From IMG/VR virus record IMGVR_UViG_2778261035_000005: DNA of 64,000 bases; one strand, given 5' to 3'. Numbering within the stretch: position 1 is the stretch's first letter; every line of letters starts with the position of its first letter. Below are positions 1 through 62,379 of the stretch, piece after piece. This stretch comes from a virus. Its lineage: Duplodnaviria > Heunggongvirae > Uroviricota > Caudoviricetes. A program made the translations under genes and the position numbers. The notes under the pieces were generated by a model. That model was given only the letters and a program-made list of their open reading frames with translations, did not search any database and was not told the origin of the DNA.

Positions 1-1038
1 AAGATGTCCAAGTCTCGCGGCACCTTTATTAAAGCCAGCACCTGGCTGAATCATTTTGACGCTGACAGCCTGCGTTACTACTACACTGCGAAACTCTCTT
101 CGCGCATTGATGATATCGATCTCAACCTGGAGGATTTCGTTCAGCGCGTGAATGCCGATATCGTGAACAAAGTGGTTAACCTGGCCTCCCGTAATGCAGG
201 CTTTATCAACAAGCGTTTTGACGGCGTGCTGGCAAGCGAACTGGCTGACCCGCAACTGTACAAAACCTTTACTGATGCTGCTGAAGTGATTGGTGAAGCA
301 TGGGAAAGCCGCGAATTTGGTAAAGCGATTCGTGAAATCATGGCGCTGGCTGATCTGGCTAACCGCTATGTCGATGAACAGGCTCCGTGGGTGGTGGCGA
401 AGCAGGAAGGGCGCGATGCCGATCTGCAGGCGATTTGCTCTATGGGCATTAACCTGTTCCGCGTGCTGATGACGTACCTGAAACCGGTACTGCCGAAACT
501 GACTGAACGTGCAGAAGCATTCCTGAATACAGAACTGACCTGGGATGGTATCCAGCAACCGCTGCTGGGCCATAAAGTGAATCCGTTCAAGGCACTGTAT
601 AACCGCATCGACATGAAGCAGGTTGAAGCACTGGTGGAAGCATCCAAAGAGGAAGTAAAAGCCGCTGCCGCGCCAGTAACTGGCCCACTGGCAGATGATC
701 CGATTCAGGAAACCATCACCTTTGACGACTTCGCCAAAGTTGACCTGCGCGTGGCTCTGATTGAAAACGCGGAGTTTGTCGAAGGTTCTGACAAACTGCT
801 TCGCCTGACGCTGGATCTCGGTGGCGAAAAACGTAATGTCTTCTCCGGCATTCGTTCCGCTTATCCAGATCCACAGGCACTGATTGGTCGTCACACCATT
901 ATGGTGGCCAACCTGGCTCCGCGTAAAATGCGCTTCGGTATCTCCGAAGGCATGGTGATGGCTGCTGGCCCCGGCGGGAAAGATATCTTCCTGTTAAGCC
1001 CGGATGCTGGTGCTAAACCAGGCCACCAGGTTAAGTAA
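1..1038 (+). CDS. metG: methionyl-tRNA synthetase, C-terminal part (5' end upstream of window)
   Basis: Frame open from window edge; translation starts at class I KMSKS motif and ends ...AKPGHQVK, recognised from memory as enterobacterial MetRS; stop 1036-1038. Confidence 0.93.
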
Positions 1039-1059
1039 TTAAGCAACCATTCTTCACAA

Positions 1060-1085
1060 TGCCCGGCAATACGCTGGGCATTTTC
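1060..1085 (+). terminator. rho-independent terminator after metG
   Basis: GC hairpin tgcccgg...ctgggca followed by TTTT. Confidence 0.5.
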
Positions 1086-1121
1086 ATTTAGACACAATCC
1101 CTTCTGATTTACACATACCCT

Positions 1122-1188
1122 AAAACAATTTGTTTTCTGCCTTTTGTTGATTGAGATAATAAACCACATAAGAAAACAACTTGTTTTG
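1122..1188 (+). promoter_or_regulatory. promoter/operator cassette: two AAAACAA-N-TTGTTTT palindromes flanking a GATAAT box
   Basis: Palindromes at 1122-1136 and 1173-1187, GATAAT at 1154-1159, immediately upstream of RBS/ATG 1200; same cassette recurs at about ten other gene starts. Confidence 0.55.
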
Positions 1189-1199
1189 GAGTGGTTTAA

Positions 1200-1499
1200 A
1201 TGTTGAACATTACCCAAGCCTACCAGGTGGCATTGATCAGCTCATCTCATACATCAGAGGAAGATGCTCGCCGATTCATGATCGCAAGCAATGAGCTGGA
1301 TTGGGTTTCACAAATTGAGTACGGTTGCATTGTCCACGCCGGGTTACAGGACGATGACTGGAAAGATGAGTTGCGTCGATATGGTATATCCGAGGGCGCG
1401 ATTGCGAACATTCAGAAAGTACTTGATGTAGGCTTTGACTCTGTACATTTTGATTGTGGCGCACCGGTCGTTGAAGGGCTTGAGTGCTGGCAATGGTAA
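1200..1499 (+). CDS. hypothetical small acidic protein (99 aa)
   Basis: ORF with GGAG RBS just 5'; own promoter-palindrome cassette. Confidence 0.55.
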   Translation: MLNITQAYQVALISSSHTSEEDARRFMIASNELDWVSQIEYGCIVHAGLQDDDWKDELRRYGISEGAIANIQKVLDVGFDSVHFDCGAPVVEGLECWQW

Positions 1500-1535
1500 T
1501 CCGGCAATCGCTTCATACTAGATAACGGAGAATTT

Positions 1536-1721
1536 ATGCTTAAAGAAGACTCATATCTACTAAAGGCGCTTGAAATGCGTGGCGTTGAACCTACAGTGAA
1601 AAACGCCCACGATATCTACCTTCAGTTTTCACCGGAGCTGAAACGGCTCATAAATCAATACGGGGTTAATGACTCAAGTGTTAAAGCGATGATAGATGAT
1701 GAATTAGACCATCTCATCTAA
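1536..1721 (+). CDS. hypothetical small protein (61 aa)
   Basis: ORF with GGAG-like RBS (acggag) upstream; short. Confidence 0.4.
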   Translation: MLKEDSYLLKALEMRGVEPTVKNAHDIYLQFSPELKRLINQYGVNDSSVKAMIDDELDHLI

Positions 1722-1873
1722 TCGTTATCCTATGATAATGGTTTCACTTTGAGATTGTTATTTTTCATAGCCAAAGCTGATGTTTGTGGAAGGTGGATTG
1801 ATAAACGGATGCGTATTTAGGTTATACAAGTGAGAAAATTGATAATATATAAACGCGATTTTTATGTGATGGA

Positions 1874-2443
1874 ATGGATGTGATGGAAACCCAGAACCAA
1901 CAAACAAAACCTCTGAATAACATTTATGCGTGGATTCTAGCGTTCATGCCTTTCTTCTTTGGAGTATTGCCGGAAGAGTATACCAATTACGCTATTATAA
2001 TTGGGGGTGTAACTACCATCGGTTTGTTAGTAGCTGACAGAATGGCTCTATCGGAGTCTGGCTGTGAACCACCTTCAATTCTATGGGGGGTATTCCTCCT
2101 GCCTGTCTATCTCTGGAAGCGCGCGACTATTACAAAAGGCAGCAGAGTGCCATTTATCATAATCGTTGCGTCGCTGGCTTGGATTATCTTCATCGGCATC
2201 CCACACAAGGACGAGGTTGCTCTTGAAGAAGCAGCCTGCCCTCTCGTGACAACTATTCTGAAAGAGAATAACGGTTCGACTGCACCAAAATGTATGAAGG
2301 TGACAATAGAGGACAAGGTGACGGATAAGTTCTATAGAGCAACGGCTACACTAGACAATGGTAATGACATTAACATTACTCTGGAACTTACCGGTGACAG
2401 GAACTTCTACGTCCGTGTTCCAAATGTTTATCTGAACAACTAA
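1874..2443 (+). CDS. hypothetical membrane protein (189 aa)
   Basis: ORF with several hydrophobic helices in N-terminal two-thirds. Confidence 0.5.
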   Translation: MDVMETQNQQTKPLNNIYAWILAFMPFFFGVLPEEYTNYAIIIGGVTTIGLLVADRMALSESGCEPPSILWGVFLLPVYLWKRATITKGSRVPFIIIVASLAWIIFIGIPHKDEVALEEAACPLVTTILKENNGSTAPKCMKVTIEDKVTDKFYRATATLDNGNDINITLELTGDRNFYVRVPNVYLNN

Positions 2444-2569
2444 CGGTTGCAACTTATTGATAATGGCGGTCACAATTTGATTCTTTTCTATAAGAATCCG
2501 TTGATCGCCACTACTCCCCTTCCATACCTGCAATCATAACCTTAAATATCAATAGGTTATGGTTGTTTA

Positions 2570-3300
2570 TACAAATAAGAAAACAACTAAATAACAGATC
2601 AACGAAACGTCAACGCTTTCACCCGATTTGGTCTAAAAAATTGATGTTTTCACACATCACTTCTTATACCCGTAACTCTACGCAGCAGACAGCGCCACAG
2701 CGTCCAATTTTCACCACAGACGACTCAACACACCACCAACAAAAACACACGCTCAAAATCGCTCCCGTTGCGTTACATAACCATATAAACAACTTATTTT
2801 CAGGCATAACAAAACAACTAAATAACACACATGCCATTCCCCAAAACAACCAACCTCTTTATGGCAGGCTACCGAAAAGACCCACCTCTTCTTCCCAGGC
2901 TACCGGACAACCAACCTAACTTTCACAGGCAATCCGAAAACATTCATACGCGCGATACCCACGATACGCCATTCCCCAAATAGCGAAGCACACCAGAATC
3001 ACTGAAACCCCCAACGAAGCCTGTAACCGCAAGGTTTCTCTCAATCCCAAAAGACACGAAACATAACAATCACGGGAAATGCCATTACCCAATACACGAA
3101 TAACTACAAAAGCCTTTCACACACTCCAGACAAACAACTCAAACACAACAACGAAAGGAATCGCCCACCTGCCATTACTCCATACACAGAGAAGAACAAT
3201 CACCAAAACGACGAGAACACCCCATAGAAGAACCACCGCAAAACGAACGAAACCACATACACCGACAGAGAAAACAACACACCCAATTCACCAACAGAAA
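2570..3300. other. strand-asymmetric A+C-rich tract (G and T nearly absent on + strand), no credible ORF
   Basis: Direct reading: long runs of only a/c; internal repeats (aaaacaactaaataaca at ~2580 and ~2810); ORF-track proteins here are low-complexity T/P/Q/H/N/K strings. Confidence 0.8.
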
Positions 3301-3484
3301 TAGTCGCCGTATAGAACATTCTGGAAGGAGTGAGCATTAACGCCTATAGAGAGGTTGAGACAGATAAAACACAACATGTATAGCGAAGAAGCCAGGTATG
3401 TATAAGTGGGGAGGGAAGGAGGGGTGTCGCCTCCTTTTTCGTATTTATTCAACTCCTGATTTTATCCCCCCGTAACACCCCTAC

Positions 3485-3645
3485 GGTCAGCCTTCGGTCA
3501 ATACAGGGAAAAGGCTGCATCCTGCTACAGAAACGGCTGGGTTGCCTTCGGGGAACGGCTGGGGATTTTCAGGGAAACGGTCGAGTTGCCTGTGTGGATT
3601 TCGGGAAAAGGCTCGATGCCGGTTCAGGAACGGCGGCGTACCGGT
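3485..3645. repeat. iteron-like array of ~6-7 degenerate ~22-bp direct repeats (core GGGAAACGGCTGG)
   Basis: cagggaaaaggctg / cagaaacggctgggttgcc / tcggggaacggctgggg / tcagggaaacggtcgagttgcc / tcgggaaaaggctcgatgcc / tcaggaacggcggcg in tandem. Confidence 0.6.
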
Positions 3646-3953
3646 ATAGCGAGAGGGAGAGTTGCGGCTACCCACCTGTAATGTGCGGGAAGAAGAGAGG
3701 CGCTCACGTGCAGGTGAACTTACTTACCGCTGGATTCCCTCTGAATGCCCAGCTACAGCATAATTGTGCCAGACAGCCAACGGGTCACAATCGATTTCAG
3801 TAGGTTTTCGGGGAGATGATTATTCTGCCCACCAGCCACCTTCGGCTACTAAATCAGAATAATGTAAAAAGTGTACTCGGTACTGAACCTGAAAACTCAC
3901 TGCCAAAACCACATTCACCGGAATAAAATCCTTTTTCGACTGTGCGTTATTGC

Positions 3954-3990
3954 GATAATAACACCATCAAGAAAACATGTTGTTTAAGGA
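3954..3990 (+). promoter_or_regulatory. promoter/operator cassette (GATAAT + palindrome)
   Basis: gcgataataacaccatcaagaaaacatgttgtttaagga; near-identical to cassettes at 6091 and 6575. Confidence 0.55.
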
Positions 3991-3997
3991 TTGCTTT

Positions 3998-4327
3998 ATG
4001 TTTACAAATATCGACATCAACCAAATCAAGAAATTAACTCAAAAAGAGTTTGATCAGTTTTATGAGTTAGAAGGTTGGTCTTCCACTCTGATCAATTCGC
4101 GGTGGGTGCTTGAGCTGATGACTCGTGATGACGCACCTGCTTTGATGATTTGCGACATGGGTGAAGATGCTGACTTTATGGATATGAGCGAATTTTGTGT
4201 GGACACATACAACCGCAGCCAGAAGTACTACTTCACATGCGATAGCGAAAATGACGTGATTTCTAAGGTCTATCTTCACCTCGTCCAGCATTGGGACGTT
4301 CAGGAGTTTCTTGAAGTATTCGAGTAA
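3998..4327 (+). CDS. hypothetical small acidic protein (109 aa)
   Basis: ORF; ATG 3998 chosen because the track start at 3977 lies inside the operator palindrome; RBS aagga upstream. Confidence 0.55.
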   Translation: MFTNIDINQIKKLTQKEFDQFYELEGWSSTLINSRWVLELMTRDDAPALMICDMGEDADFMDMSEFCVDTYNRSQKYYFTCDSENDVISKVYLHLVQHWDVQEFLEVFE

Positions 4328-4453
4328 CCCCAACCAAAGCCAGCATTGCTGGCTTAATTTCTCTATAGCCGCAGGGAAGAACCTGCATATAGCTCATGCA
4401 CCTGATCAATATGCTTTGTAGCCGTTTTCTTACTGGTATTATTTACGCCATTG

Positions 4454-4469
4454 AGAAAACAAGTTGTTT
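4454..4469 (+). promoter_or_regulatory. operator palindrome GAAAACAAGTTGTTTA
   Basis: Perfect AAACAA-G-TTGTTT palindrome 12 nt upstream of ATG 4481. Confidence 0.5.
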
Positions 4470-4480
4470 ACGGAGTTGTG

Positions 4481-4792
4481 ATGAAAAAATCATTGGTTCT
4501 TGGTCTGGACAAAGACCAGAAGAGAAAAGAGAAGCCTACGCTGGTTGCTCAATTAACTTTGCTGGACATCGTTGCCAATGGAACCTCTATTCGTCTGTTC
4601 CGTGAAACAGCGGTGTCTTTCGATAAAAACACCTTTACTCGTTATGTAATGAATGTTCGTCGCCAGCGTGGAAAAGGCTGGGTGGCATTTCAAAGAATGT
4701 GGCCGGAACATCAGCTCGAACTGGCTTTGATGGAAGTTAACCGCGTGGCCCAGCAAGAGATTCAGAGAGCATCAGTGATGGCAATAGCCTGA
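4481..4792 (+). CDS. hypothetical protein (103 aa)
   Basis: ORF, RBS acggag; track TTG start 4451 lies in operator so ATG 4481 preferred. Confidence 0.55.
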   Translation: MKKSLVLGLDKDQKRKEKPTLVAQLTLLDIVANGTSIRLFRETAVSFDKNTFTRYVMNVRRQRGKGWVAFQRMWPEHQLELALMEVNRVAQQEIQRASVMAIA

Positions 4793-4826
4793 TAATGTGC
4801 AAGTGGTAATTAGTCGACCGTACGAC

Positions 4827-4856
4827 AGCCCCGCCATCCTTACGGGGCTTTTTTGT
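4827..4856 (+). terminator. rho-independent terminator
   Basis: agccccg...cggggct hairpin followed by TTTTTT. Confidence 0.65.
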
Positions 4857-4918
4857 ATTGTAAGTACATACTTACGATCATAGAATAGAAAAATAACCAA
4901 TACACTACGGAGAGTGAA

Positions 4919-5314
4919 ATGACCGTTAAACGCGAAAAACTGACAGTTGATGTTTACTATGCCTCTGAAACCGCCGAAGGTAAGAATGTGGCAAAAATTA
5001 CCGTTGTTACGTACAACACCGAAACTGGTGCCGAAGTCCAGGCCAGTACGATCGTGCGTAAAGGTGATGCCTCCGGCGGCGAGTACGCGACTCAATACCA
5101 GTCCATTCTCGATGCAACTGACCCGCTGCTGCTGAAAATCGAGAACTACTTCCGCCAGGTTGATGAAGAGGTGTTTGAAACCATGATGAATATGGTTAAC
5201 ACCGTATTCGCCTCCAGCCTGAATACCAACACTACCTGGATTGGTCAGTACGGCCTGCGCATTACCTCTGGCATTCCTGCCGACACCTTAATCCCTGAAA
5301 GCGTATTCGCTTAA
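4919..5314 (+). CDS. hypothetical protein (131 aa)
   Basis: ORF with RBS (ggagag) upstream and terminator downstream. Confidence 0.55.
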   Translation: MTVKREKLTVDVYYASETAEGKNVAKITVVTYNTETGAEVQASTIVRKGDASGGEYATQYQSILDATDPLLLKIENYFRQVDEEVFETMMNMVNTVFASSLNTNTTWIGQYGLRITSGIPADTLIPESVFA

Positions 5315-5323
5315 TCCTCTTTA

Positions 5324-5350
5324 AATGGCGCGTAAACCGCGCCATTTTAT
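5324..5350 (+). terminator. rho-independent terminator
   Basis: aatggcgcg-taaac-cgcgccatt hairpin then TTAT. Confidence 0.6.
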
Positions 5351-5357
5351 TATGCCC

Positions 5358-5380
5358 GATAACAATTTGTTTTCTGCCTT
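5358..5380 (+). promoter_or_regulatory. operator palindrome (AACAATTTGTTTTCTGCCTT variant, as at 1122)
   Basis: gataacaatttgttttctgcctt matches 1120-1141 nearly base for base. Confidence 0.5.
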
Positions 5381-5431
5381 ATCTGATTTGTGAAAATGAT
5401 TTCACTGAAGCAACTTAATAAGGAAACCATC

Positions 5432-5806
5432 ATGGGACTTGATATCTATATCGAGACGCAGCCTAAAAACGATCTGAATAACGAGGCATCCAGAAAGCAG
5501 GTTGCTTACTTCCGTAAGTTCAATGCGCTCGTTGGGTGGATGGAGCGCAACGTAGGTGAAGTCGAAAATTGTGAGCTTTTAGAATTAACGATGAATGACA
5601 TTTGCCTTCTGAAAGCTCATTTGATGCACATAAACGAAAGCAATTGCGAAGAGTACTTGCCTACCCGGGAAGGTTTTTTCTTCGGCAGTCAGGAGTACGA
5701 CGAAGGTTACTGGCATGATGTGGGGGAGTTGAAAGAGCTTGTGGAAGATCTGATTAAGAACCACGACTTTCACAATAATAGACTGACCTTCTGCGCCTGG
5801 TGGTAA
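5432..5806 (+). CDS. hypothetical acidic protein (125 aa)
   Basis: ORF; ATG 5432 has aaggaa RBS, upstream GTG/ATG candidates do not. Confidence 0.5.
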   Translation: MGLDIYIETQPKNDLNNEASRKQVAYFRKFNALVGWMERNVGEVENCELLELTMNDICLLKAHLMHINESNCEEYLPTREGFFFGSQEYDEGYWHDVGELKELVEDLIKNHDFHNNRLTFCAWW

Positions 5807-5808
5807 AT

Positions 5809-5952
5809 ATGGGCGATTTCAAGAAACGCCTGAAGGAGAGAGCCGAGATGGTCAGAAAGCGAAACGCCTCTTCTGTCATCAGATACGCAAGGCAGTTTAG
5901 TCGCAACAACAAATCAGTTGAGGAAAAGATCCTTAGCGTAATCGGGCGATAA
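5809..5952 (+). CDS. possible small basic peptide (47 aa), translationally coupled
   Basis: ATG overlaps stop context of previous gene; ends just before terminator hairpin; below ORF-track size cut-off. Confidence 0.3.
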   Translation: MGDFKKRLKERAEMVRKRNASSVIRYARQFSRNNKSVEEKILSVIGR

Positions 5953-5956
5953 TTAT

Positions 5957-5982
5957 TAAGACCACCAGCATTGGTGGTCTTA
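5957..5982 (+). terminator. rho-independent terminator
   Basis: aagaccaccagcattggtggtctt hairpin; paralogous to hairpin at 6429. Confidence 0.6.
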
Positions 5983-6090
5983 AATGACTTTTAATAACCT
6001 AAGGTTAATTTTAAACCTGGCTATCAACTTCCAGAACCTTTCTTGTGTATTCAGCCTGTATTAACTTCTTTTATGCCTTATCTACACTGC

Positions 6091-6122
6091 GATAATTACA
6101 CCAACAAGAAAACAACATGTTT
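6091..6122 (+). promoter_or_regulatory. promoter/operator cassette (GATAAT + palindrome)
   Basis: gcgataattacaccaacaagaaaacaacatgttt. Confidence 0.55.
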
Positions 6123-6141
6123 ACGCAGTGAGGATATGCTC

Positions 6142-6423
6142 ATGACTGATTTCACCATTACCACCAAAGCACAAAATGTATTCCTCGAATCATGGCTGGA
6201 CTTGCCGGAAACAGAACAGCAAGAAATGGATCATGTGGATTATGACGAGCAGGTAAGCACGCGATTCTTCCACTTTGAGGGCTGCGTTTACGACATTGCC
6301 GACTTCATGCGAGATGACCGCTTCCCTGAATGGCACGCCAGTTATCCACTAAACGCCTTTGCCATGCTGATGATCCGTGTGGATGATTCAGGGGATACCA
6401 TCGACATCGGTCTGCTCCACTAA
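6142..6423 (+). CDS. hypothetical small acidic protein (93 aa)
   Basis: ORF; ATG 6142 is 7 nt after RBS tgaggat; many D/E residues. Confidence 0.55.
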   Translation: MTDFTITTKAQNVFLESWLDLPETEQQEMDHVDYDEQVSTRFFHFEGCVYDIADFMRDDRFPEWHASYPLNAFAMLMIRVDDSGDTIDIGLLH

Positions 6424-6428
6424 AGGCT

Positions 6429-6452
6429 AAGGCCACCAATGCTGGTGGCCTT
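6429..6452 (+). terminator. rho-independent terminator
   Basis: aaggccaccaatgctggtggcctt hairpin. Confidence 0.6.
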
Positions 6453-6574
6453 AAATGACCATCCTGTTTCCCTCAGGCTAATAACACCAACCTCTTACCT
6501 CCAGGCAACCGACAAACCCACCTGTTCCCGTCCGGCTACCGCAACTTTCCACTTTGACGCCTTATTCGTACAAC

Positions 6575-6607
6575 GATAATTAACACCAACAAGAAAACAA
6601 TTTGTTA
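6575..6607 (+). promoter_or_regulatory. promoter/operator cassette (GATAAT + palindrome)
   Basis: acgataattaacaccaacaagaaaacaatttgtta. Confidence 0.55.
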
Positions 6608-6627
6608 TTTACGATAAGGAATTAATC

Positions 6628-7110
6628 ATGAATTTTATCGCTACTGTGAACGCACCCGCACATGGCAATATCGCTGTAACGTTCTCTGACATTGAAAAAC
6701 GAGTACTTGGTGCATGGCGCGACAATGAGACGGTAGAACTGTCAGTACAAGAAAAATGCATTATTGCACGCGACATCATTGGTAATCGTCGTTACTCGCG
6801 GGTATTTGAGAAAGCGTATGTGGTAAATTCTGGATTCGGAACGTTCGTCTTCCCGGTACGCTCCGGGCGATTCTGCCAGTCCAAGCTGATTGAGTTCGCT
6901 ACGCAGATTTCTGTCTGGATTAAAACTCAATCGTCGTTCAAATTTTCCGACGATGAAGCAGTATCGCAGGGGATGCGAATCGCCAACAATGCAATTAAAT
7001 GCAAAAATATTACGTATACCGCTGGCGTTGACACATGGAAACTGTTTTGCGCTAACTTTATGCTGAATGTATACGCAAGCAACCGCATCCACATCCTTGA
7101 TGGCGTGTAA
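6628..7110 (+). CDS. hypothetical protein (160 aa)
   Basis: ORF with RBS aagga and downstream hairpin. Confidence 0.55.
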   Translation: MNFIATVNAPAHGNIAVTFSDIEKRVLGAWRDNETVELSVQEKCIIARDIIGNRRYSRVFEKAYVVNSGFGTFVFPVRSGRFCQSKLIEFATQISVWIKTQSSFKFSDDEAVSQGMRIANNAIKCKNITYTAGVDTWKLFCANFMLNVYASNRIHILDGV

Positions 7111-7115
7111 CTGAG

Positions 7116-7141
7116 AAGAGGGCCAGAAACGGCCCTTTCTC
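7116..7141 (+). terminator. terminator-like hairpin
   Basis: gggcc-agaaac-ggccc with flanking AGA/TCT. Confidence 0.45.
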
Positions 7142-7144
7142 TAT

Positions 7145-7290
7145 AGACACCAGCTGCCGCAGGGAAATTTTCAGAAACGGCGAGGAACGTATTCATGAGC
7201 CGACGGGAAACGGCCAGGATTTTTTCGGGAAACGGCTGCATTCGCCTTTATGTAGAAAAAAACATCGGGAAGCTGGTGGAATCCAACCAG
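7145..7290. repeat. second iteron-like array (GGGAAACGGC units)
   Basis: cagggaaatttt / cagaaacggcgagg / acgggaaacggccagg / tcgggaaacggctgcattcgcc / atcgggaagctgg. Confidence 0.55.
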
Positions 7291-7655
7291 CGGTTGTCGG
7301 ACAGGCGAGCGGGGAAAATTATGATGACTTTCGTCGCCTGAGACATCCAGATTTCTTTCGTAGCATAATCACATACGTGATTAAGTGGTGTGATTATGTG
7401 AAAAATCACGCGCACATAATACGCGAGCGGATACGGAACAAAACAAAATGCCGATCCGCGCCGACAAATAAACGCGGATCACATAGCAAGACTAAAAGCC
7501 AATGATTAACCATACGCTATAGCGCAATATAACGCGTTTTAAGCGCGTTAATGTGTTAAGTAATGGGTATGTACTGGTAAGGATATAAAAGCGCGTCTAT
7601 GGCGTTATTTGGGTGCTTATTTTTATGTTGTTGGAGTGAGTTAAAGACAATAAAA

Positions 7656-9478: not shown

Positions 9479-10003
9479 TCAAAAAGGCAAAATTCGTTCA
9501 ACCCAATCGAACAAAACAACTATTTTTCTACCGTTCTCGACACGTAGTGTAACCTGACAAGCATCTGCGCCTGCTGACACCCCCTCAATTTCACGGCCAT
9601 CCGCCATGTACACCCTTATAGATTTGTTTGCTTTGTAGGCTTGGTTGCAAATTGCAAAAAAATCGCGGCGTGATGGCCGATTATCGACATAATCAGGGTG
9701 AACTGTTAGTCGACCTTTGAAATCGTGAGCGATACTGTCAACCACACCTGATTCAATTGTACTAATGCGTTCAAGTGGGAGCCTTATACGATTTTCTTTG
9801 TCAAAAGGGGCTGGGCAAAGGTCAACTTTGTTACGAGATGGCATGAGGCCATAAACGTACATGCAAAACGCCTGGCCATCTTCGAGAGTGACCCTTACAG
9901 GAATTTGTTCTCTGCGCCAGAACATCAGTAGTTTTTCAACGTTAGTGTAATCTCGCGGCCAGAGTTCAGCTTGGATACCGTAGGTAATATCTTTGGTTGT
10001 CAT
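9479..10003 (-). CDS. hypothetical protein
   Basis: ORF; start trimmed to ATG 10003 to avoid overlap with upstream lipoprotein gene. Confidence 0.45.
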   Translation of the reverse strand: MTTKDITYGIQAELWPRDYTNVEKLLMFWRREQIPVRVTLEDGQAFCMYVYGLMPSRNKVDLCPAPFDKENRIRLPLERISTIESGVVDSIAHDFKGRLTVHPDYVDNRPSRRDFFAICNQAYKANKSIRVYMADGREIEGVSAGADACQVTLRVENGRKIVVLFDWVERILPF

Positions 10004-10498: not shown

Positions 10499-10777
10499 TT
10501 ATTTTAATCTGCTTAATAGCGTTTCGAGATCTTCCTTTGTCATATTAGAGTTCTCATAGATACGCATGATTTTCTCACGAGTCTTAGCGGAAGCCCCGAC
10601 AGAAGATATAACCTTGTCAAAGTCGGCCATTGTCAATTGTTCCAGAATGGTATTTATGACTTCAGCCTTAGACATTTTGATATTTTTTTCTTTTAGTTTC
10701 ACTTGAAACTTTCCAAGTTTGTCATTGGCCTTATCAGACAATGCTACCTGACAGTAAGTTGTTTTCTTTTCACTCAT
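10499..10777 (-). CDS. hypothetical protein (92 aa)
   Basis: ORF directly downstream of helicase gene, 2-nt gap. Confidence 0.5.
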   Translation of the reverse strand: MSEKKTTYCQVALSDKANDKLGKFQVKLKEKNIKMSKAEVINTILEQLTMADFDKVISSVGASAKTREKIMRIYENSNMTKEDLETLLSRLK

Positions 10778-12382: not shown

Positions 12383-12404
12383 TAATAAGTAAGTGATTAC
12401 CTAG
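12383..12404. promoter_or_regulatory. TAAGTA-family motif in divergent promoter region
   Basis: taataagtaagtgattacctag between helicase (-) and ParB-like (+) genes. Confidence 0.4.
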
Positions 12405-15328: not shown

Positions 15329-15595
15329 ATGACGTTAACCGATAAACAAAAGGACATCATCAAAACGCTCAATCTCGGTTATGAGCGAGGTCATCTACTT
15401 GACCTGGACGAATTGCTTGAAGTTTTGCCGTACAAGACAACCAAGCAAAGTATCCAGTTCTCAATTCGCGCTCTGATAAAAAAGGGGCTGGTGGAGAAAG
15501 GGCATACGCGCCAACGCAGTGACAATCGCTATCACCGCCGGACTCTTGGGTTAACCACTTTAGGTCGAGCCAAAGCGAAGTTACTGGTGATGTAA
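15329..15595 (+). CDS. small basic protein, possible winged-helix DNA binder
   Basis: 88-aa ORF; helix-rich basic segment SIRALIKKGLVEKG. Confidence 0.4.
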   Translation: MTLTDKQKDIIKTLNLGYERGHLLDLDELLEVLPYKTTKQSIQFSIRALIKKGLVEKGHTRQRSDNRYHRRTLGLTTLGRAKAKLLVM

Positions 15596-15710: not shown

Positions 15711-15750
15711 GAAAACAAGTTGGTTAGCAGATGCAGTAAACAAGTTGTTT
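15711..15750 (+). promoter_or_regulatory. operator palindrome plus half-site (GAAAACAAGTTGG ... AAACAAGTTGTTT)
   Basis: Same motif family as left-arm cassettes. Confidence 0.5.
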
Positions 15751-15751
15751 T

Positions 15752-15780
15752 AGAGCGCATGGACGCGCTCTGTGTGTTTT
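15752..15780 (+). terminator. terminator-like hairpin in leader of packaging operon
   Basis: agagcgc-atggac-gcgctct followed by gtgtgtttt, 12 nt before TerS start. Confidence 0.45.
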
Positions 15781-15790: not shown

Positions 15791-16423
15791 ATGACGGTCG
15801 AAAAAGACGAGGTAAAAACTCGCCTGACACCAGCGGAGTGGGCCGAAGCTGAAGCCAAATGGACGTCAGGCGAATATACACTCTCAAAGCTGGAGGAAGA
15901 GTACGGCATTCGTCGTGAAACACTCTCCAGACATTTCAAAAAGCGAGGATTAGAGAAAGGCGCGGACTCTGTTGGGAAGATGGTTCGTGAGTCTCTTAAA
16001 TCTGACGCAGAGCTTCGCGCTAAAGCCCGTGCGGAAAAGATAGAAGAACGTCGTACACGTTATGACGGCTGGGCGTATGCGTTGGGGCAGATGGTGATGG
16101 TCGAAGTCACTACGGCCAAACGTGAGGGTAAGCCTTTAGGGGCGATTGAGGATTCTCTCAAGAGCTTACAGAGAGCCAGTAATACCCTTGCAAAATGCTT
16201 TGAAGTTTCGTCCAAAGCATTGGGCATGGATCATGCGGAAAATGACGAGGAAGAAATTCCGAACCTGGTATTTGGTGAGCTTACGCCTTCCCAGGTGGCG
16301 AAATTACGTCAGGAAGACGACGAGCCTGAAATCATCGATGACGAATTGCTTGAGACGTTGGAAGAAGAAGCTCTAAGCGAATTTGATGCGACAGATGATG
16401 GAAGTGAAGGGGAGGACGAATAA
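15791..16423 (+). CDS. terminase small subunit candidate
   Basis: Position immediately 5' of TerL with ATGA overlap; HTH-like N-terminus, acidic C-terminus. Confidence 0.5.
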   Translation: MTVEKDEVKTRLTPAEWAEAEAKWTSGEYTLSKLEEEYGIRRETLSRHFKKRGLEKGADSVGKMVRESLKSDAELRAKARAEKIEERRTRYDGWAYALGQMVMVEVTTAKREGKPLGAIEDSLKSLQRASNTLAKCFEVSSKALGMDHAENDEEEIPNLVFGELTPSQVAKLRQEDDEPEIIDDELLETLEEEALSEFDATDDGSEGEDE

Positions 16424-44622: not shown

Positions 44623-44890
44623 GTATTCCTCCTGATGGCCGTGATGTAGGAAGGCCATCAATCTCCTCTGTTCAAACTGAGTTTTCGACTCAAAAATTAC
44701 TTTAAAAGGCTATAGCCCATTACGTGTGCATTATCAAATTGTGTACGGCATATCACCGTACTTGTAATATAGAGGTCATTGTTACTTTTTTCAACAGACA
44801 AATACAAGCTATGATTGCCAATTGTTAATCACAACCTACCATTTAACCTTTACACCGCAGCCGTAGGCATTTAGGCTATATCACATATAA

Positions 44891-44906
44891 GAAAACAAGT
44901 TGTTTC
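44891..44906 (+). promoter_or_regulatory. operator palindrome GAAAACAAGTTGTTTC upstream of parA
   Basis: Same palindrome family as left arm. Confidence 0.5.
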
Positions 44907-44940: not shown

Positions 44941-45609
44941 ATGACCAAGATCTTTGTGGTTGGCGGCACAAAGGGCGGGCCTGGCAAATCCACCGTTGCC
45001 CAGCAAATTGCCGTTTGCCTGAAAGTCAAAAAGAAGAAGAAGGTTTATATCACTGATATAGATATTCAGCGCACGACAACAAGCTGGTGTGAAGACCGTC
45101 GACAGAACGAAGACCTTGAGCTGATTCCTTTTGCATACGTTCAGGATGACATCATTAAGCACCTAAAATCGCTTCAGGGTAGAGCTGAGTTTGTAGTGGT
45201 AGATGCTGGTGGCTTTGACTCCGAAATTCAGCGACAAGCGATGCTGATGGCCGACGTTATCATTATCCCGCTTCGTCCTAAGCGTCGTGATTTGAAATCT
45301 CTGCGTGACATCGATCCTATTATCGACAATGTTCGTAATGTAAACGATAAAGTGAAGGTCCGCGCGGTCATGAACCAGTGCCCGGCTTTGCCATCACAAG
45401 TGTCTCGCATTCTGGCGGCTAAAGAGATTGTCGAGACGTTTGGCATCGAGTCTGCGCCAGTCAATCTATATAACCGCAACGTCTACGATGATGCGGAAGA
45501 GTCTGGTCGTTCTATCTTTGAAATGACCGGTAGCGAGCGCGACAAAAAGGCGGAAGCCGAGTTTGAAGAATTTGTAGATTATCTGTTGAGTCTGGAGGAA
45601 GAAGAATAA
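44941..45609 (+). CDS. parA: ParA-family partition ATPase
   Basis: Deviant Walker A GGTKGGPGKST; 222 aa. Confidence 0.85.
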   Translation: MTKIFVVGGTKGGPGKSTVAQQIAVCLKVKKKKKVYITDIDIQRTTTSWCEDRRQNEDLELIPFAYVQDDIIKHLKSLQGRAEFVVVDAGGFDSEIQRQAMLMADVIIIPLRPKRRDLKSLRDIDPIIDNVRNVNDKVKVRAVMNQCPALPSQVSRILAAKEIVETFGIESAPVNLYNRNVYDDAEESGRSIFEMTGSERDKKAEAEFEEFVDYLLSLEEEE

Positions 45610-45968
45610 TGTCCATGAAAATGGGTGACCTAGCAAAGCGCAAAGAGCCTGATGCACCGGCCAAGAACACAACTCCTTTGCGCCAACCAGTCAGACCACA
45701 GGGACGCCCGACTCGTGGCAAAGAGAAAATTAAAAGCCGCACAATGTCACTGGAAGACGAATACTTCGAACTGCTGGAGATGATGAAGTTCATCCCTCGC
45801 TTCGAGAAATTCACCCGCTCTGATGTGATTCGTGCTGCTATTTTCCATCTTGCGGAGAAGACACCGCAGGAAATCGAGGACATCGTAAAGCTGAACGAGG
45901 CGATCACAGCTGCCGATGTCACGATGCGTACCGATGAAATTAAACGCGAGTTGATGAAGAAAGGTTAA
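45609..45968 (+). CDS. RHH centromere-binding protein (ParG-like)
   Basis: Basic disordered N-terminus + C-terminal RHH-like segment; ATGA overlap with parA. Confidence 0.55.
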   Translation: MSMKMGDLAKRKEPDAPAKNTTPLRQPVRPQGRPTRGKEKIKSRTMSLEDEYFELLEMMKFIPRFEKFTRSDVIRAAIFHLAEKTPQEIEDIVKLNEAITAADVTMRTDEIKRELMKKG

Positions 45969-48118: not shown

Positions 48119-48134
48119 AAAACAATTTGTTTAA
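48119..48134 (+). promoter_or_regulatory. operator palindrome GAAAACAATTTGTTTA upstream of helicase
   Basis: Same palindrome family. Confidence 0.5.
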
Positions 48135-56963: not shown

Positions 56964-56965
56964 AT

Positions 56966-60332: not shown

Positions 60333-61436
60333 ATGAAAAATAGCTTTGACAGAGCACGCGCTGCGGAGAACACCTCAAAAGAGGCGATTGAGTATCTCGA
60401 AAGAGCATCTCAAATGCAGGCCGTTATGATCTCCCAGGTCAGCAATGACATGAGATTCTCGGACGCATTCATGTTATTCACTCGCTTATCTCTGCTGATA
60501 ACAAGACGTCGGCCAGAGATCGCTGTTCATTGTATTTTGATACATGTTTTGCCGCACATTGCCGATGTAAAAGTAAGTGATATTAATAGGTTCATGGTGA
60601 ACCAACTGGTCAACCCACTAATACTGGATGGCAAAATTGTTATGGGTCGCCGCGTTTTCTCTCTGATGAAGCAGTTCCTCAGCTGGTGCGCCTTCCAGGG
60701 GATGATCGACGTGTCACCGTTAAACGATATGTCACTTAACAAAGTTGCCGGTGGCGCAAAGCCCACACCTCGCGAGCGGAAGCTAACCGACGCAGAGGTA
60801 TGGGTGTTCTGGAATATATGGGACTACTTCAATGTGTGTGCTGGTACAAAATGGGCGGCCAGGCTATGTCTTGTATCCGCAAGACGACCTGACGAAGTAC
60901 TGCGGGCTAAAAAAAGTGAGTTCAACCTCCAGCGTGGGGTTTGGAATCAAGGCAAGAGAAACAAATCAGCCCGTGAGCATTCTCTGCCTTTAAGCACATT
61001 AATGCGCACATGCATTGAAGAGTTATTCGAATATGGTAAAGGCAGCCAGTGGCTTGTGCCTTCGAATAAAAAAATCGGGAAAGATCTTCCGATGTCTAAA
61101 GTGGCAATAGCCCAGGCATTACGCCGTATCCTGGAACGACCAGAACTGATGGAGCTTGAGCCATTTACACCACGAGATTTGCGTCGTACTGCGCGTAGTT
61201 ACTTCCCAGCATTAGGCATAAGCCAGGAGGTATCACGTAAAATCATGAACCACAGTCTTGAGGGGATAGATCGGGTCTACGACCGGCACGATTATATGGA
61301 CGAGATGCGAGACGCCTTAGAAAGTTTCTCGACGTACATCGCATCAATCGTAGAGCAACCGGATTTAGACGAAATTGACCACAAATTCAAGGGAGATCGT
61401 CTATCGACAGAGCTTATTCGTGTAAATTTTTCATAG
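60333..61436 (+). CDS. tyrosine integrase / site-specific recombinase
   Basis: C-terminal catalytic motifs ...PRDLRRTARS... and NHSLEGIDRVYDRHDY (H-x-x-R ... Y). Confidence 0.75.
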   Translation: MKNSFDRARAAENTSKEAIEYLERASQMQAVMISQVSNDMRFSDAFMLFTRLSLLITRRRPEIAVHCILIHVLPHIADVKVSDINRFMVNQLVNPLILDGKIVMGRRVFSLMKQFLSWCAFQGMIDVSPLNDMSLNKVAGGAKPTPRERKLTDAEVWVFWNIWDYFNVCAGTKWAARLCLVSARRPDEVLRAKKSEFNLQRGVWNQGKRNKSAREHSLPLSTLMRTCIEELFEYGKGSQWLVPSNKKIGKDLPMSKVAIAQALRRILERPELMELEPFTPRDLRRTARSYFPALGISQEVSRKIMNHSLEGIDRVYDRHDYMDEMRDALESFSTYIASIVEQPDLDEIDHKFKGDRLSTELIRVNFS

Positions 61437-61817
61437 AGACTTTATGGCCTCAACAACCTTTTGTGATGCGCCTTTCTCTTTACCGAATCGCTCGTTATAT
61501 GCAGCAAGAACCTGTTTTTCGTCCTCGTTAAGAGGAGCAGTGCCTTCTTTGTATAAAAATGCTGCGAGTTCGGGTTGGCGTTCTTCCAGCACCATCATCA
61601 TAAGACGACTTGGCTCAATACCCAGTGCCAGCGCCAGCGGACGAACCTTATCGATAGGCAAAGGAATTTTGCCGCTTTTAATTAAAGAAAGGTTGTTGGC
61701 GTTTTTATACCCAATTGTTTTGGCTATCTGGGCCTGGCTCATAGGTGAGGATTCAATCAACCCTGCGATAAAAGCAGCGTAGCGACTTTCTATAAATTCA
61801 ATCTTGTTGTCAGACAT
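61431..61817 (-). CDS. XRE-family HTH repressor (CI/Cro-like)
   Basis: HTH MSQAQIAKTIGYKNANNLSLIKSGK; divergent from downstream rightward genes. Confidence 0.7.
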   Translation of the reverse strand: MSDNKIEFIESRYAAFIAGLIESSPMSQAQIAKTIGYKNANNLSLIKSGKIPLPIDKVRPLALALGIEPSRLMMMVLEERQPELAAFLYKEGTAPLNEDEKQVLAAYNERFGKEKGASQKVVEAIKSL

Positions 61818-62281: not shown

Positions 62282-62379
62282 TCCCTCTTCTACCTGCGCG
62301 AATGGCTTAGTTCCCTGTTCGCGCAGTGCTACATTAAACACACTAGTAAATAATTTGTTTTCATAACAAAGGATTAGCC

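What the first reader, a model, noticed from the sequence alone, without database searches (positions are those of the whole stretch)
1120..6610. Recurring promoter-operator cassette (GATAAT + AAAACAA-N-TTGTTT palindrome) in front of about ten genes
Near-identical cassettes lie immediately 5' of the RBS at 1122/1173, 3954, 4454, 5358, 6091 and 6575, and again at 15711-15750 (packaging operon), 44891 (parA), 48119 (helicase) and 62348 (CobT-like). The palindrome sits between a -10-like GATAAT and the Shine-Dalgarno, where a repressor operator or a 5'-UTR hairpin would act. This looks like one regulon tying the small-gene array to partition, replication and packaging.
Basis: seen in the sequence. 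Interest (0 to 1): 0.7.

Follow-up and report, generated by a model that had tools for sequence, protein, structure and literature searches.

The report
Shared operator palindrome in phage-plasmid promoters
A 15-base palindrome (AAAACAA-N-TTGTTTT) sits at two fixed positions around the promoters of at least 15 transcription units of an SSU5-family phage-plasmid of E. coli; it is most likely the binding site of one element-encoded repressor, not yet identified, that keeps partition, replication, packaging and accessory genes quiet in the carrier state.

Summary
The window is an SSU5-like phage-plasmid, near-identical to pWP4-S18-ESBL-07_2 and 97% to phage Cyrano. AAAACAA-N-TTGTTTT ("M1") occurs 15 times at ≤2 mismatches (0.5 expected); 12 copies lie in promoters of 10 genes, and 20 copies exist in the whole 110-kb element.

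Placement follows the promoter, not the ribosome site. The palindrome starts 12-13 nt after an extended -10 (TGnGATAAT; centre about +14), ends exactly 18 nt before it (centre about -38), or both, 51 bp apart. Distance to the ATG varies from 10 to 73 nt.

Across relatives the arms are invariant while the central base and flanks drift. The RNA hairpin is no more stable than shuffles. In a published Cyrano lysogen transcriptome, M1-preceded genes sit at background except the parA operon.

Best reading: a DNA operator of a dimeric repressor, forming one regulon. The binder is not established. I favour the small protein encoded after ParA (probably ribbon-helix-helix, ParG/omega-like). The 88-aa MarR-like winged-helix protein is the main rival.

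This is a new member of a known kind (dispersed-operator regulons: P1 C1, RK2 KorA/KorB, pSM19035 omega). I found no description of it in the papers searched.

The parts
1122..1136 (+). M1 palindrome, perfect (AAAACAATTTGTTTT), upstream position (O-up, centre about -38 of the 1155-1160 promoter)
   Evidence: ends exactly 18 nt before the GATAAT hexamer; 51 bp centre-to-centre from the 1173 copy
1152..1160 (+). extended -10 TGAGATAAT of the first array promoter
   Evidence: no -35 found by the sigma-70 scan
1173..1187 (+). M1 palindrome, perfect (AAAACAACTTGTTTT), downstream position (O-down, centre about +14); precedes the SD and ATG at 1200 (DUF5983 protein)
   Evidence: starts 12 nt after the -10
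3951..3986 (+). cassette: TGCGATAAT (3951-3959), 12 nt, then M1 (3972-3986, AAAACATGTTGTTTA); precedes the gene at 3998-4327
4434..4470 (+). cassette: TGGTATTAT (4434-4442), 13 nt, then M1 (4456-4470); precedes the gene at 4481-4792
5359..5397 (+). O-up-only cassette: M1 (5359-5373, ATAACAATTTGTTTT), 18 nt (ctgccttatctgatttgt), then GAAAAT (5392-5397, with TG at 5389-5390). The O-down has decayed (aagcaacttaataagg). Precedes the gene at 5432-5806
   Evidence: sits just after a terminator-like hairpin at 5325-5345
6088..6123 (+). cassette: TGCGATAAT (6088-6096), 12 nt, then M1 (6109-6123). A decayed O-up remnant 'cttcttttatgccttat' lies upstream; the pMT1 orthologue still has both operators. 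Precedes the gene at 6142-6423
6575..6608 (+). cassette: GATAAT (6575-6580), 13 nt, then M1 (6594-6608); precedes the gene at 6628-7110
15712..15751 (+). two M1 copies 25 bp apart (15712-15726 and 15737-15751) in front of the terminase small-subunit / late operon (terS 15791-16423)
   Evidence: the same pair is present in pMT1 and Cyrano, and a single perfect copy in the diverged Klebsiella lineage
44849..44906 (+). parA promoter: -35 TTTACA (44849-44854), 17-nt spacer, -10 TAGGCT (44872-44877), then M1 (44892-44906, AAAACAAGTTGTTTC)
   Evidence: the whole core is conserved in 33 distinct upstream variants while sequence further upstream is mosaic
44941..45609 (+). parA: small Walker ATPase (222 aa), type Ib-like
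   Evidence: MipZ 7e-14, AAA_31 9e-14, CbiA; for coordinates
45615..45968 (+). 117-aa protein after ParA: my favoured candidate M1-binding repressor. It has a disordered basic N-terminus with an MGDLAK motif, an invariant SRTMS.EDE strand and an FTRSDVIRAAI helix, and is probably ribbon-helix-helix, ParG/omega-like
   Evidence: expressed in the Cyrano lysogen (CYRAN_29, 89 normalised counts against a background of 9.8)
48119..48133 (+). M1 in front of the DnaB-like helicase (48152-49492)
   Evidence: TAGAAAACAA-N-TTGTTTAA is unchanged in 34 of the 37 full-length upstream variants; the other three change one or two arm bases. Otherwise only the central base changes, while the -10 and spacer diverge
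62347..62361 (+). M1 (TAAATAATTTGTTTT) in front of the CobT-like gene (62380-), 11 nt after TGCTACATT
   Evidence: the pMT1 orthologue has a perfect copy
15329..15595 (+). 88-aa MarR-like winged-helix protein: the main rival candidate binder, and the last gene of the ParB-like operon
61431..61817 (-). Xre/HTH_19 repressor (128 aa); probably not the M1 binder

Best explanation
M1 (AAAACAA-N-TTGTTTT) is a DNA operator for a dimeric, or dimer-of-dimers, DNA-binding protein encoded by the phage-plasmid. It sits at two fixed places around host sigma-70 promoters that depend on an extended -10 and lack a -35. One place is centred about +14, where a bound protein blocks open-complex formation or promoter escape. 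The other is centred about -38, where it blocks upstream RNA polymerase contacts. Some promoters carry both, 51 bp (about five helical turns) apart. Occupancy keeps at least 15 transcription units silent in the plasmid-prophage state: the array of self-contained promoter-gene-terminator units after metG, the terS late operon, helicase-primase, cobT-cobS, nrdB, a TerB-like gene and others. The parA operon, which carries one copy, runs at an intermediate, autoregulated level. The binder I consider most likely is the 117-aa protein encoded after ParA, acting as both partition adaptor and global repressor, as omega does in pSM19035. What is shown: the motif, its enrichment, its fixed geometry, its phylogenetic footprint, the silence of the downstream genes in a lysogen, and the weakness of the RNA hairpin. 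What is inferred: that a protein binds it, that the effect is repression, and which protein it is.
For: - Enrichment: 15 copies at ≤2 mismatches in the window against 0.5 expected. There are 20 in the whole element and 17 of these are in promoter context, although only 15% of the element is intergenic.
- Geometry: all 11 upstream-type copies in three lineages end exactly 18 nt before a TGn-GATAAT-type hexamer. Downstream-type copies start 12-13 nt (range 10-13) after the -10. Pairs are 51 bp apart in this element, pMT1 and the Klebsiella plasmid. The gap to the ATG varies from 10 to 73 nt.
- No canonical -35 was found at these promoters. TG is present 1 nt upstream of the -10.
- Footprint: at the helicase promoter, 34 of the 37 full-length upstream variants keep both arms and vary the central base, while the -10 and spacer diverge. 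The parA operator is unchanged in all 33 variants apart from the central base. M1 has the same consensus and about 20 copies in a lineage whose helicase is only 70% identical, and it is present in the Cronobacter-type and a more distant lineage.
- Between this window and that Klebsiella plasmid, only the 40-85-bp cassettes align at nucleotide level (75-92%, six of seven at 81-92%); the genes between them are unrelated.
- RNA hairpin: -0.1 to -1.9 kcal/mol, no better than shuffles. No Rfam family matches.
- Cyrano lysogen RNA-seq (PMC9928086 S1 Table): 12 of 15 M1-preceded first genes are below log2 4 (floor 2.32). parA/CYRAN_29/30 give 50/89/55 normalised counts against a background of 9.8.
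- For the ParA-adjacent protein: it is expressed in the lysogen, and an M1 or M1-like site lies in the parA promoter in all six lineages examined. Its strand and helix motifs are invariant in 14 homologues. Remote family members reach Pfam RHH_8 and RHH_1 at threshold. In Moellerella, which has no M1 regulon, the only promoter-context M1-like site (AAAACAATATATTTT) and two direct repeats containing the half-site (ATAACAAGGC) lie upstream of parA.
Against: - No binding or transcription-start data exist. Transcription starts are inferred only from -10 consensus.
- pMT1 keeps 7 M1 copies, one of them perfect, but has lost the type Ib parA/parG-like module. pMT1 is a recent, degenerate chimera, so this is weak evidence, but it does count against the favoured binder.
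- The 88-aa winged helix is better conserved (78% against 51% in the diverged lineage) and is a bona fide MarR-like fold.
- M1 genes were not significantly co-induced with parA across RNA-seq conditions (p=0.2).
- How the regulon would be released during lytic growth is unknown.
Confidence: 0.68

Rival explanations
1. M1 is bound by the 88-aa MarR-like winged-helix protein (15329-15595). This is the last gene of the ParB-like operon and lies immediately upstream of the double M1 site at terS. It would act during lytic growth as a temporal regulator that shuts off, or otherwise times, the M1 promoters, rather than as a lysogenic repressor.
For: - The AlphaFold model (pLDDT 82) matches the MarR-family proteins MepR, ZitR, AdcR and MarR with TM 0.7-0.75. 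MarR dimers bind 16-20-bp palindromes.
- It is the best-conserved small DNA-binding candidate: 78% identity in the diverged Klebsiella lineage and 89% in pMT1, with an invariant putative recognition helix TTKQSIQFSIRALIKKGLV.
- It is present in every M1-bearing lineage, including pMT1.
- Its gene abuts the terS operators.
Against: - It is at background in the lysogen (CYRAN_123, 7.8), where M1 promoters are already silent. It therefore cannot explain that silence.
- Its recognition helix is conserved in the Moellerella plasmid, which has no M1 before terS or anywhere else except upstream of parA.
- Sites at +14 and -38 flanking the same -10 are not activator positions.
Confidence: 0.18
2. The palindrome acts at the RNA level. 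It would be a 5'-UTR element next to the ribosome-binding site, bound by a translational repressor such as the FljA homologue (9479-10003, minus strand, with a weak Hfq-like match), or a 5'-terminal hairpin that stabilises the mRNA.
For: - Most copies lie between the predicted start and the Shine-Dalgarno.
- The element encodes a strong FljA homologue (PF03614, E=1.5e-84). From established knowledge, FljA of Salmonella represses fliC through its mRNA leader.
- AAG-AAAACAA is A-rich and the right arm is U-rich.
Against: - The hairpin is thermodynamically negligible and no better than shuffles.
- Spacing is fixed to the -10, while the distance to the ATG varies from 10 to 73 nt.
- Eleven copies sit upstream of the -10, several directly after terminators, where they would not be in that gene's mRNA.
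- In Klebsiella-type helicase promoters the best -35/-10 pair (TTGATT-N16-TACGAT) places the start inside the palindrome.
- Mismatches often break pairing, for example A·G at 15712.
- The FljA homologue is only 36% identical in a lineage with an unchanged M1.
Confidence: 0.05
3. The similarity reflects a portable promoter cassette that has been copied in front of newly acquired genes, like the PeSL cassettes of T4-type phages. On this view the palindrome is a passenger or a recombination substrate, not a regulated operator.
For: - The roughly 70-bp cassette (palindrome, ctgcctt.t, N11, TGnGATAAT, N9, AG, palindrome) recurs with 75-92% identity in front of unrelated genes and is the only nucleotide similarity to the diverged Klebsiella array.
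- Decayed half-cassettes are common.
- Each array gene is its own promoter-gene-terminator unit.
Against: - M1 also occurs, without the rest of the cassette, in the differently built parA, helicase, cobT, nrdB and terS promoters.
- The arms are under tighter constraint than the neighbouring -10 and spacer, and the central base is free.
- Duplication explains the spread but not the maintenance. The two readings are compatible: a cassette that spreads a promoter together with its operator.
Confidence: 0.06
4. M1 is bound by a host (Enterobacteriaceae) transcription factor, so the regulon reads a host signal.
For: - M1 is invariant across elements from E. coli, Klebsiella, Salmonella, Yersinia and Cronobacter, while most element-encoded candidates diverge.
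- It is missing in the Morganellaceae host.
- pMT1 keeps it after losing the par module.
Against: I know of no E. coli regulator with this consensus. KdgR (AAACA-N-TGTTT core) and PhoP (TGTTTA direct repeats) resemble half-sites but differ in spacing or orientation; this is from memory and was not tested. I did not scan the host chromosome.
Confidence: 0.05

Closest known systems
Omega (ParB) regulon and parS heptads of pSM19035 (inc18)
   Same: A small ParA plus a small ribbon-helix-helix ParB whose 7-bp repeats overlap several promoters, so the partition adaptor is also a global repressor. Two dimers bind tightly to two heptads in direct or inverted orientation (PMC9499535). M1 can be read as two heptads (AAAACAA) in inverted orientation. 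One copy lies in the parA promoter.
   Different: Omega sites are 7-10 contiguous heptads with no gap, at three promoter types (six parS sites). M1 is two heptads separated by 1 bp, at 15 or more promoters, including phage replication and packaging genes. In pSM19035, two heptads are poor cofactors for ParA activation, so M1 alone may not be a centromere. There is no detectable sequence homology to omega, and binding is untested.
KorA/KorB global regulon of IncP-1 plasmids (RK2)
   Same: Short palindromic operators are repeated at many promoters of one replicon, tying replication, partition and other functions together. One of the regulators is the partition protein. Operators occupy defined positions relative to promoters. 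(Established knowledge; not tested here.)
   Different: KorB is an HTH ParB-family protein and KorA a small HTH protein. Their operator sequences (TTTAGC(G/C)GCTAAA and GTTTAGCTAAAC) are unrelated to M1. The two ParB-N-domain proteins in this element are silent in the lysogen.
C1 repressor and its dispersed operators in phage-plasmid P1
   Same: In a plasmid prophage, one repressor controls many operators scattered around the genome, in front of replication and accessory genes, for example the DnaB analogue ban. (Established knowledge.)
   Different: P1 operators are asymmetric 17-mers (ATTGCTCTAATAAATTT) bound by a monomer. M1 is a two-fold symmetric 15-mer. In this element the immunity-type repressor (Xre) seems tied to the other palindrome, M2, not to M1.
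PeSL (promoter-early stem-loop) cassettes of T4-type phages
   Same: Short conserved promoter modules precede each small accessory gene in a hyperplastic region, flanked by terminator hairpins, and are conserved where the genes between them are not. (Established knowledge: Arbiol et al. 2010; compare.)
   Different: PeSLs are not known to carry a shared operator. Here the conserved core is a palindrome that also occurs in non-cassette promoters elsewhere in the genome.
FljA and the fliC mRNA leader (Salmonella phase variation)
   Same: A homologue (PF03614, E=1.5e-84) is encoded in the window, and most M1 copies lie in predicted 5' leaders.
   Different: FljA acts on one host mRNA. M1 geometry follows the promoter, not the RBS, and M1 also lies outside transcripts.

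Membership tests
Dispersed-operator regulon of a plasmid or prophage (generic: one palindrome, many promoters, one repressor) | The same short palindrome is significantly over-represented and concentrated in promoter regions | tested here: met
   15 copies against 0.5 expected in the window; 17 of 20 copies in the element are in promoter context although only 15% of the sequence is intergenic
Dispersed-operator regulon of a plasmid or prophage (generic: one palindrome, many promoters, one repressor) | Fixed position relative to core promoter elements | tested here: met
   18 nt before the -10 in 11 of 11 upstream-type copies; 12-13 nt after the -10 in the downstream type; pairs spaced 51 bp in three lineages
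Dispersed-operator regulon of a plasmid or prophage (generic: one palindrome, many promoters, one repressor) | Purifying selection on the half-sites but not on the centre or flanks | tested here: met
Dispersed-operator regulon of a plasmid or prophage (generic: one palindrome, many promoters, one repressor) | Downstream genes are co-repressed in the carrier state | tested here: inconclusive
   Published lysogen RNA-seq: 12 of 15 first genes are at background, but so are most lytic genes. There was no specific co-induction (p=0.2).
Dispersed-operator regulon of a plasmid or prophage (generic: one palindrome, many promoters, one repressor) | A cognate protein binds the site | not testable with these tools
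   needs EMSA, footprinting or ChIP
Type Ib partition module with an RHH centromere-binding protein acting as transcriptional repressor (ParG / omega type) | Small Walker-type ParA (about 200-220 aa) followed by a small non-HTH ParB gene | tested here: met
   222-aa MipZ/AAA_31/CbiA ATPase, then a 117-aa ORF 5 nt downstream
Type Ib partition module with an RHH centromere-binding protein acting as transcriptional repressor (ParG / omega type) | The ParB has a ribbon-helix-helix fold with a flexible basic N-terminal tail | tested here: inconclusive
Type Ib partition module with an RHH centromere-binding protein acting as transcriptional repressor (ParG / omega type) | Its binding repeats lie in its own promoter (autoregulation) | tested here: inconclusive
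   M1 or an M1-like site lies in the parA promoter in all six lineages, and the operon runs at an intermediate level in the lysogen. That this protein binds M1 is not shown.
Type Ib partition module with an RHH centromere-binding protein acting as transcriptional repressor (ParG / omega type) | An array of contiguous repeats serves as the centromere | tested here: not met
   There is no contiguous array of four or more heptads next to parA. Only isolated two-heptad palindromes occur, with pairs 25 or 51 bp apart.
Structured cis-regulatory RNA in the 5'-UTR | A stable or covarying secondary structure, or membership of a described RNA family | tested here: not met
   energies no better than shuffles; Rfam finds only two tRNAs in the window
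P1 C1-type operator network | Asymmetric 17-bp operator and a C1-family repressor | tested here: not met
   M1 is a two-fold symmetric 15-mer. No C1 homologue appears in the annotations used; I did not search for one specifically.

The most novel reading that the evidence does not exclude
In SSU5-family phage-plasmids (which include pHCM2 of S. Typhi, the phage part of pMT1 of Y. pestis, and carriers of resistance genes in E. coli and Klebsiella), the partition adaptor encoded after ParA is also the global repressor. Through roughly 20 M1 operators it would directly silence phage replication (helicase-primase, nrdB), packaging (terS) and a fast-evolving array of accessory genes. Plasmid segregation and prophage quiescence would then be controlled by one protein, alongside the classical Xre immunity repressor, which has its own dispersed operator set (M2). 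The dense M1 array after metG might also serve as a dispersed centromere.
Probability: 0.3. Interest if true: 0.7.

Novelty: new member of a known kind. Interest (0 to 1): 0.45.

Why it matters
SSU5-like phage-plasmids are common in clinical Enterobacteriaceae; 719 PLSDB plasmids match this 6-kb region. They carry resistance genes, and almost nothing is known about how they regulate themselves. I found no description of their operators in the papers I could search. One 2026 preprint on a phage-plasmid promoter mechanism could not be opened.

A defined operator with a clear consensus, about 20 mapped sites and a short list of candidate binders turns their lysogeny and partition control into a directly testable problem. 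It gives a handle for de-repressing or curing these elements. It also shows how a promoter-plus-operator cassette lets newly acquired genes enter an existing regulon.

Tried and rejected
- **RNA hairpin or riboswitch-like element.** Folding eight sites gave -0.1 to -1.9 kcal/mol, z -0.3 to +0.6. Rfam found nothing at the sites. Rejected.
- **Xre repressor as binder.** Its control region lacks M1 and holds a perfect copy of another palindrome. That palindrome changes spacing where the repressor's C-terminal half changes, while M1 stays the same. Rejected as unlikely.
- **92-aa RHH-like protein (10499-10777, minus strand; well expressed in the lysogen).** The predicted DNA-facing strand residues differ between lineages that share an identical M1 (TYCQVAL / IHCQVQL / VSCHLKL). 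Unlikely.
- **71-aa protein (55458-55673).** Off in the lysogen and absent from pMT1. Unlikely.
- **FljA homologue.** See the RNA-level rival explanation.
- **Co-induction test on the published RNA-seq** (macrophage 1 h against LB): not significant, p=0.2.
- **Exact-pattern scan of IMG/VR with AGAAAACAANTTGTTTA**.
- **Homologues of the 88-aa and 117-aa proteins**. Both families are confined to SSU5-like elements, so no independent replicon was available for a co-occurrence test. The invariant DNA-reading residues left no variation for a covariation test.
- **Recombination breakpoints at the cassettes.** The one replacement seen against Cyrano (window 1500-2455) does not end at M1.
- **The preprint 10.64898/2026.08.19.745698,** on a phage-plasmid promoter mechanism, is listed by the search but could not be read.

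Full report
**What the window is.** The 6-kb region matches 719 PLSDB plasmids and ten phage records. Among them are Escherichia phage Cyrano (97%) and the SSU5-like phage-plasmids of E. coli, Klebsiella, Salmonella, Enterobacter and Yersinia. The window is near-identical to pWP4-S18-ESBL-07_2 (NZ_AP022089.1, 110,167 bp; window 40000-64000 is 100% identical), with window position 1 at record 106271. I fetched that whole record. It is a siphovirus-type plasmid prophage with T4-like replication and recombination genes, RepA, a small ParA, an Xre repressor and an integrase.

The motif is a 15-bp palindrome, AAAACAA-N-TTGTTTT, which I call M1.
- In the window it occurs 2, 8 and 15 times at 0, ≤1 and ≤2 mismatches. 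Shuffles gave 0, 0.05 and 0.5.
- The tool's own dinucleotide-preserving control on a 14-nt version gave 23 strand-matches, against a mean of 1.08 and a maximum of 6.
- The whole element has 20 copies at ≤2 mismatches. Seventeen are in promoter context although only 15% of the sequence is intergenic. The copies outside the window precede nrdB, a TerB-like gene and three further genes.

**Anatomy.** The copies fall into two positional classes.
- In the downstream class, a -10 hexamer is followed after 12-13 nt (range 10-13) by the palindrome. The hexamer is usually GATAAT preceded by TGn, which makes an extended -10. This puts the palindrome at roughly +6 to +21.
- In the upstream class, the palindrome is followed after exactly 18 nt by TGn-GATAAT or TGn-GAAAAT. 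All 11 such cases in three lineages have this spacing, which puts the palindrome at -45 to -31.
- Three cassettes carry both positions, 51 bp centre to centre: window 1122/1173, pMT1 58243/58294 and the Klebsiella plasmid 39085/39034. A second recurrent spacing is 25 bp, seen at terS here, in pMT1 and in Cyrano, and at another promoter in the Klebsiella plasmid.
- The full cassette reads [M1]-ctgcctt(a/t)t-N10/11-TGnGATAAT-N9-(A/T)AG-[M1]. Many copies have one decayed operator. Window 6075 keeps a remnant of the upstream one, which is still intact in the pMT1 orthologue. Window 5400 keeps a remnant of the downstream one.
- The sigma-70 scan finds no -35/-10 pair at these promoters. It does find terminator-like hairpins after most array genes, so each small gene is a self-contained promoter-operator-gene-terminator unit.
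- The distance from palindrome to start codon ranges from 10 to 73 nt. The element is therefore positioned relative to the promoter, not the ribosome-binding site.

**Conservation.**
- At the helicase promoter I recovered 37 full-length upstream variants from IMG/VR contigs. In 34 of them TAGAAAACAA-N-TTGTTTAA is unchanged, and the other three change one or two arm bases. The central base varies (T, A or C) and the -10/spacer region diverges freely.
- At parA the operator and core promoter are unchanged apart from the central base in all 33 variants, while sequence further upstream is mosaic.
- A diverged Klebsiella plasmid (NZ_CP101792.1; helicase 70% identical, median protein identity about 60%) has 20 M1 copies with the same consensus and many two-operator cassettes.
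- In a blastn of window 900-7300 against that plasmid, only the 40-85-bp cassettes align (75-92% identity, six of seven at 81-92%). The genes between them are unrelated.
- pMT1 of Y. pestis keeps seven copies at orthologous promoters.
- A Cronobacter-type lineage and a still more distant one have M1 before parA and before the helicase gene.
- A Moellerella plasmid of the same family has no M1 regulon.

**DNA or RNA.** Eight sites were folded as RNA and gave -0.1 to -1.9 kcal/mol, with z-scores from -0.3 to +0.6 against shuffles. In several, the minimum-energy fold is not the palindrome hairpin at all. Rfam finds only two tRNAs in the window. Four observations fit a double-stranded DNA site read by a two-fold symmetric protein and not an RNA element:
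- the fixed spacing to the -10;
- the class of sites upstream of the -10, several of them just after terminators;
- pairing-breaking mismatches, such as A·G at 15712;
- Klebsiella-type helicase promoters whose best -35/-10 pair would start transcription inside the palindrome.

**Repressor or activator.** One protein occupying both +14 and -38 around the same extended -10 promoter is a repression geometry. The published transcriptome of the Cyrano lysogen LF82 (PMC9928086, S1 Table) agrees. After mapping M1 in Cyrano, 12 of the 15 M1-preceded first genes are below log2 4, where the floor is 2.32. Promoters with TGnGATAAT should be active unless they are repressed. The clear exception is the parA operon, at 50, 89 and 55 normalised counts against a background of 9.8. 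I did not find specific co-induction of M1 genes across conditions (p=0.2), so the transcriptome is only consistent with repression and does not prove it.

**Who binds.**
- *Xre repressor (61431-61817).* It has no M1 in its own divergent control region. Instead that region holds a perfect copy of another palindrome, ATA-GGTAAGTGCTTACC-TAT ("M2"). M2 has 13 copies at ≤2 mismatches in the element and at least 8 are intergenic. They abut -10-like hexamers before the ParB-like operon, holin, grxA, nrdA, dam and others. In the diverged Klebsiella lineage M2 keeps the TAAG/CTTA half-sites but changes spacing (GATAAGTA-NN-TACTTATC). There the Xre protein keeps its recognition helix but has a different C-terminal half. 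M2 therefore tracks Xre, and M1 is a separate regulon.
- *92-aa RHH-like protein.* It is well expressed in the lysogen, but its predicted DNA-facing residues vary between lineages that share M1.
- *88-aa protein (15329-15595).* It is a convincing MarR-like winged helix (pLDDT 82; TM 0.7-0.75 to MepR, ZitR and MarR) and is highly conserved. However, it is off in the lysogen (7.8), and it keeps its recognition helix in Moellerella, where M1 is absent.
- *117-aa protein after ParA (45615-45968).* It is expressed in the lysogen. It has a disordered basic N-terminus with a conserved MGDLAK motif, an invariant SRTMS.EDE segment, and an FTRSDVIRAAI helix typical of helix 2 of ribbon-helix-helix proteins. 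Remote members of its small family reach Pfam RHH_8 and RHH_1 at threshold on that segment. Its own promoter carries M1 or an M1-like site in all six lineages examined. In Moellerella, the only promoter-context M1-like site, together with two direct repeats containing the half-site (ATAACAAGGC), lies upstream of parA. This fits a protein that began as an autoregulator of par and acquired a regulon when its operator spread with a promoter cassette.
- *Weaknesses of the 117-aa candidate.* The fold is not confirmed. pMT1 keeps M1 without this gene, although pMT1 is a recent chimera that replaced the par module. No binding data exist.
- *My estimates.* About 0.35 for the 117-aa protein, about 0.2 for the winged helix, and the rest for another element-encoded protein or a host factor.

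**Comparison with known systems.** Functionally the closest are the following.
- Omega of pSM19035: an RHH ParB whose heptads overlap several promoters and which binds two heptads in direct or inverted orientation (PMC9499535).
- KorA/KorB of RK2.
- The C1 operator network of P1.
- For the way a conserved promoter module precedes each accessory gene, the PeSL cassettes of T4-type phages.

M1 differs from each in sequence, in symmetry or repeat number, in its two-position geometry around an extended -10, and in the kind of genes it controls. As a member of the generic class of dispersed-operator regulons it meets the sequence-level criteria I could test. Membership of the ParG/omega class is only partly supported. 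One feature, a contiguous repeat array serving as centromere, is not met.

**Verdict.** The finding is real and non-trivial. The hairpin alternative and the proposed regulators are not supported. It is a new member of a known kind in a clinically widespread but poorly studied family. I rate its interest as moderate. It would be higher if the partition protein proves to be the global repressor.

Noticed in passing
window 61849-61862 (perfect); also 12388-12401, 17679-17692, 42295-42308, 58892-58905; outside the window at record 81033, 90587, 92801, 97779: There is a second dispersed palindrome, ATA-GGTAAGTGCTTACC-TAT (M2). It abuts -10-like hexamers before the ParB-like operon, portal, holin, grxA, the Xre repressor, nrdA, dam and others. 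In a diverged Klebsiella lineage the half-sites are kept but the spacing changes, together with the Xre protein's C-terminal half. It is probably the immunity repressor's operator set, though a P1-late-promoter-like activator site is an alternative.
   Followed up: partly
window 9479-10003, minus strand: A strong homologue of FljA, the Salmonella post-transcriptional repressor of phase-1 flagellin (PF03614, E=1.5e-84, plus a weak Hfq match). It is expressed at a low level in the Cyrano lysogen and rises in macrophages. It might silence host flagellin in carriers.
   Followed up: partly
window about 2560-3340: An ~800-bp stretch with no annotated gene, 70% A+C (G 13%, T 17%). It starts at an M1-type promoter whose palindrome has lost its right arm here (AAGAAAACAActaaat, 2577-2592) but is intact in the Klebsiella lineage. 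It contains several AAAACAA half-sites and ends near a terminator-like hairpin at 3413-3440. It may be a long non-coding CA-rich transcript.
   Followed up: no
window 15752-15771: A GC-rich hairpin (AGAGCGC-ATGGAC-GCGCTCT) followed by GTGTGTTTT lies between the double M1 operator and the terS ribosome site. The stem is conserved in pMT1 with a different loop. It may be a leader terminator or attenuator of the late operon. A different, weaker hairpin that is not terminator-like occupies this position in the diverged Klebsiella lineage.
   Followed up: no
window 59511-60065, minus strand: The homologue of CYRAN_43 is by far the most highly expressed Cyrano gene in the lysogen (about 7,000 normalised counts against a background of 10). 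Its function is unknown. The signal could come from an overlapping small RNA.
   Followed up: no
window 10499-10777, minus strand: A 92-aa protein next to the UvsW-like helicase has a ribbon-helix-helix-like N-terminus and is well expressed in the lysogen (CYRAN_117, 114 counts). Its putative DNA-reading residues are lineage-specific, so it probably has its own, different target.
   Followed up: partly
L215 (Moellerella plasmid NZ_CP093251.1), record about 15350-15460: Upstream of parA in a relative that lacks the M1 regulon, I saw AAGAAAACAATATATTTT and two exact direct repeats of ATAACAAGGC 21 bp apart, just before the start codon. This looks like an ancestral or alternative arrangement of the same heptad.
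   Followed up: partly
window 56889-57038: Two tRNA genes (Rfam, 75-76 bits). Cyrano annotates tRNA-Asn, tRNA-Thr and tRNA-Ser at the equivalent place.
   Followed up: no
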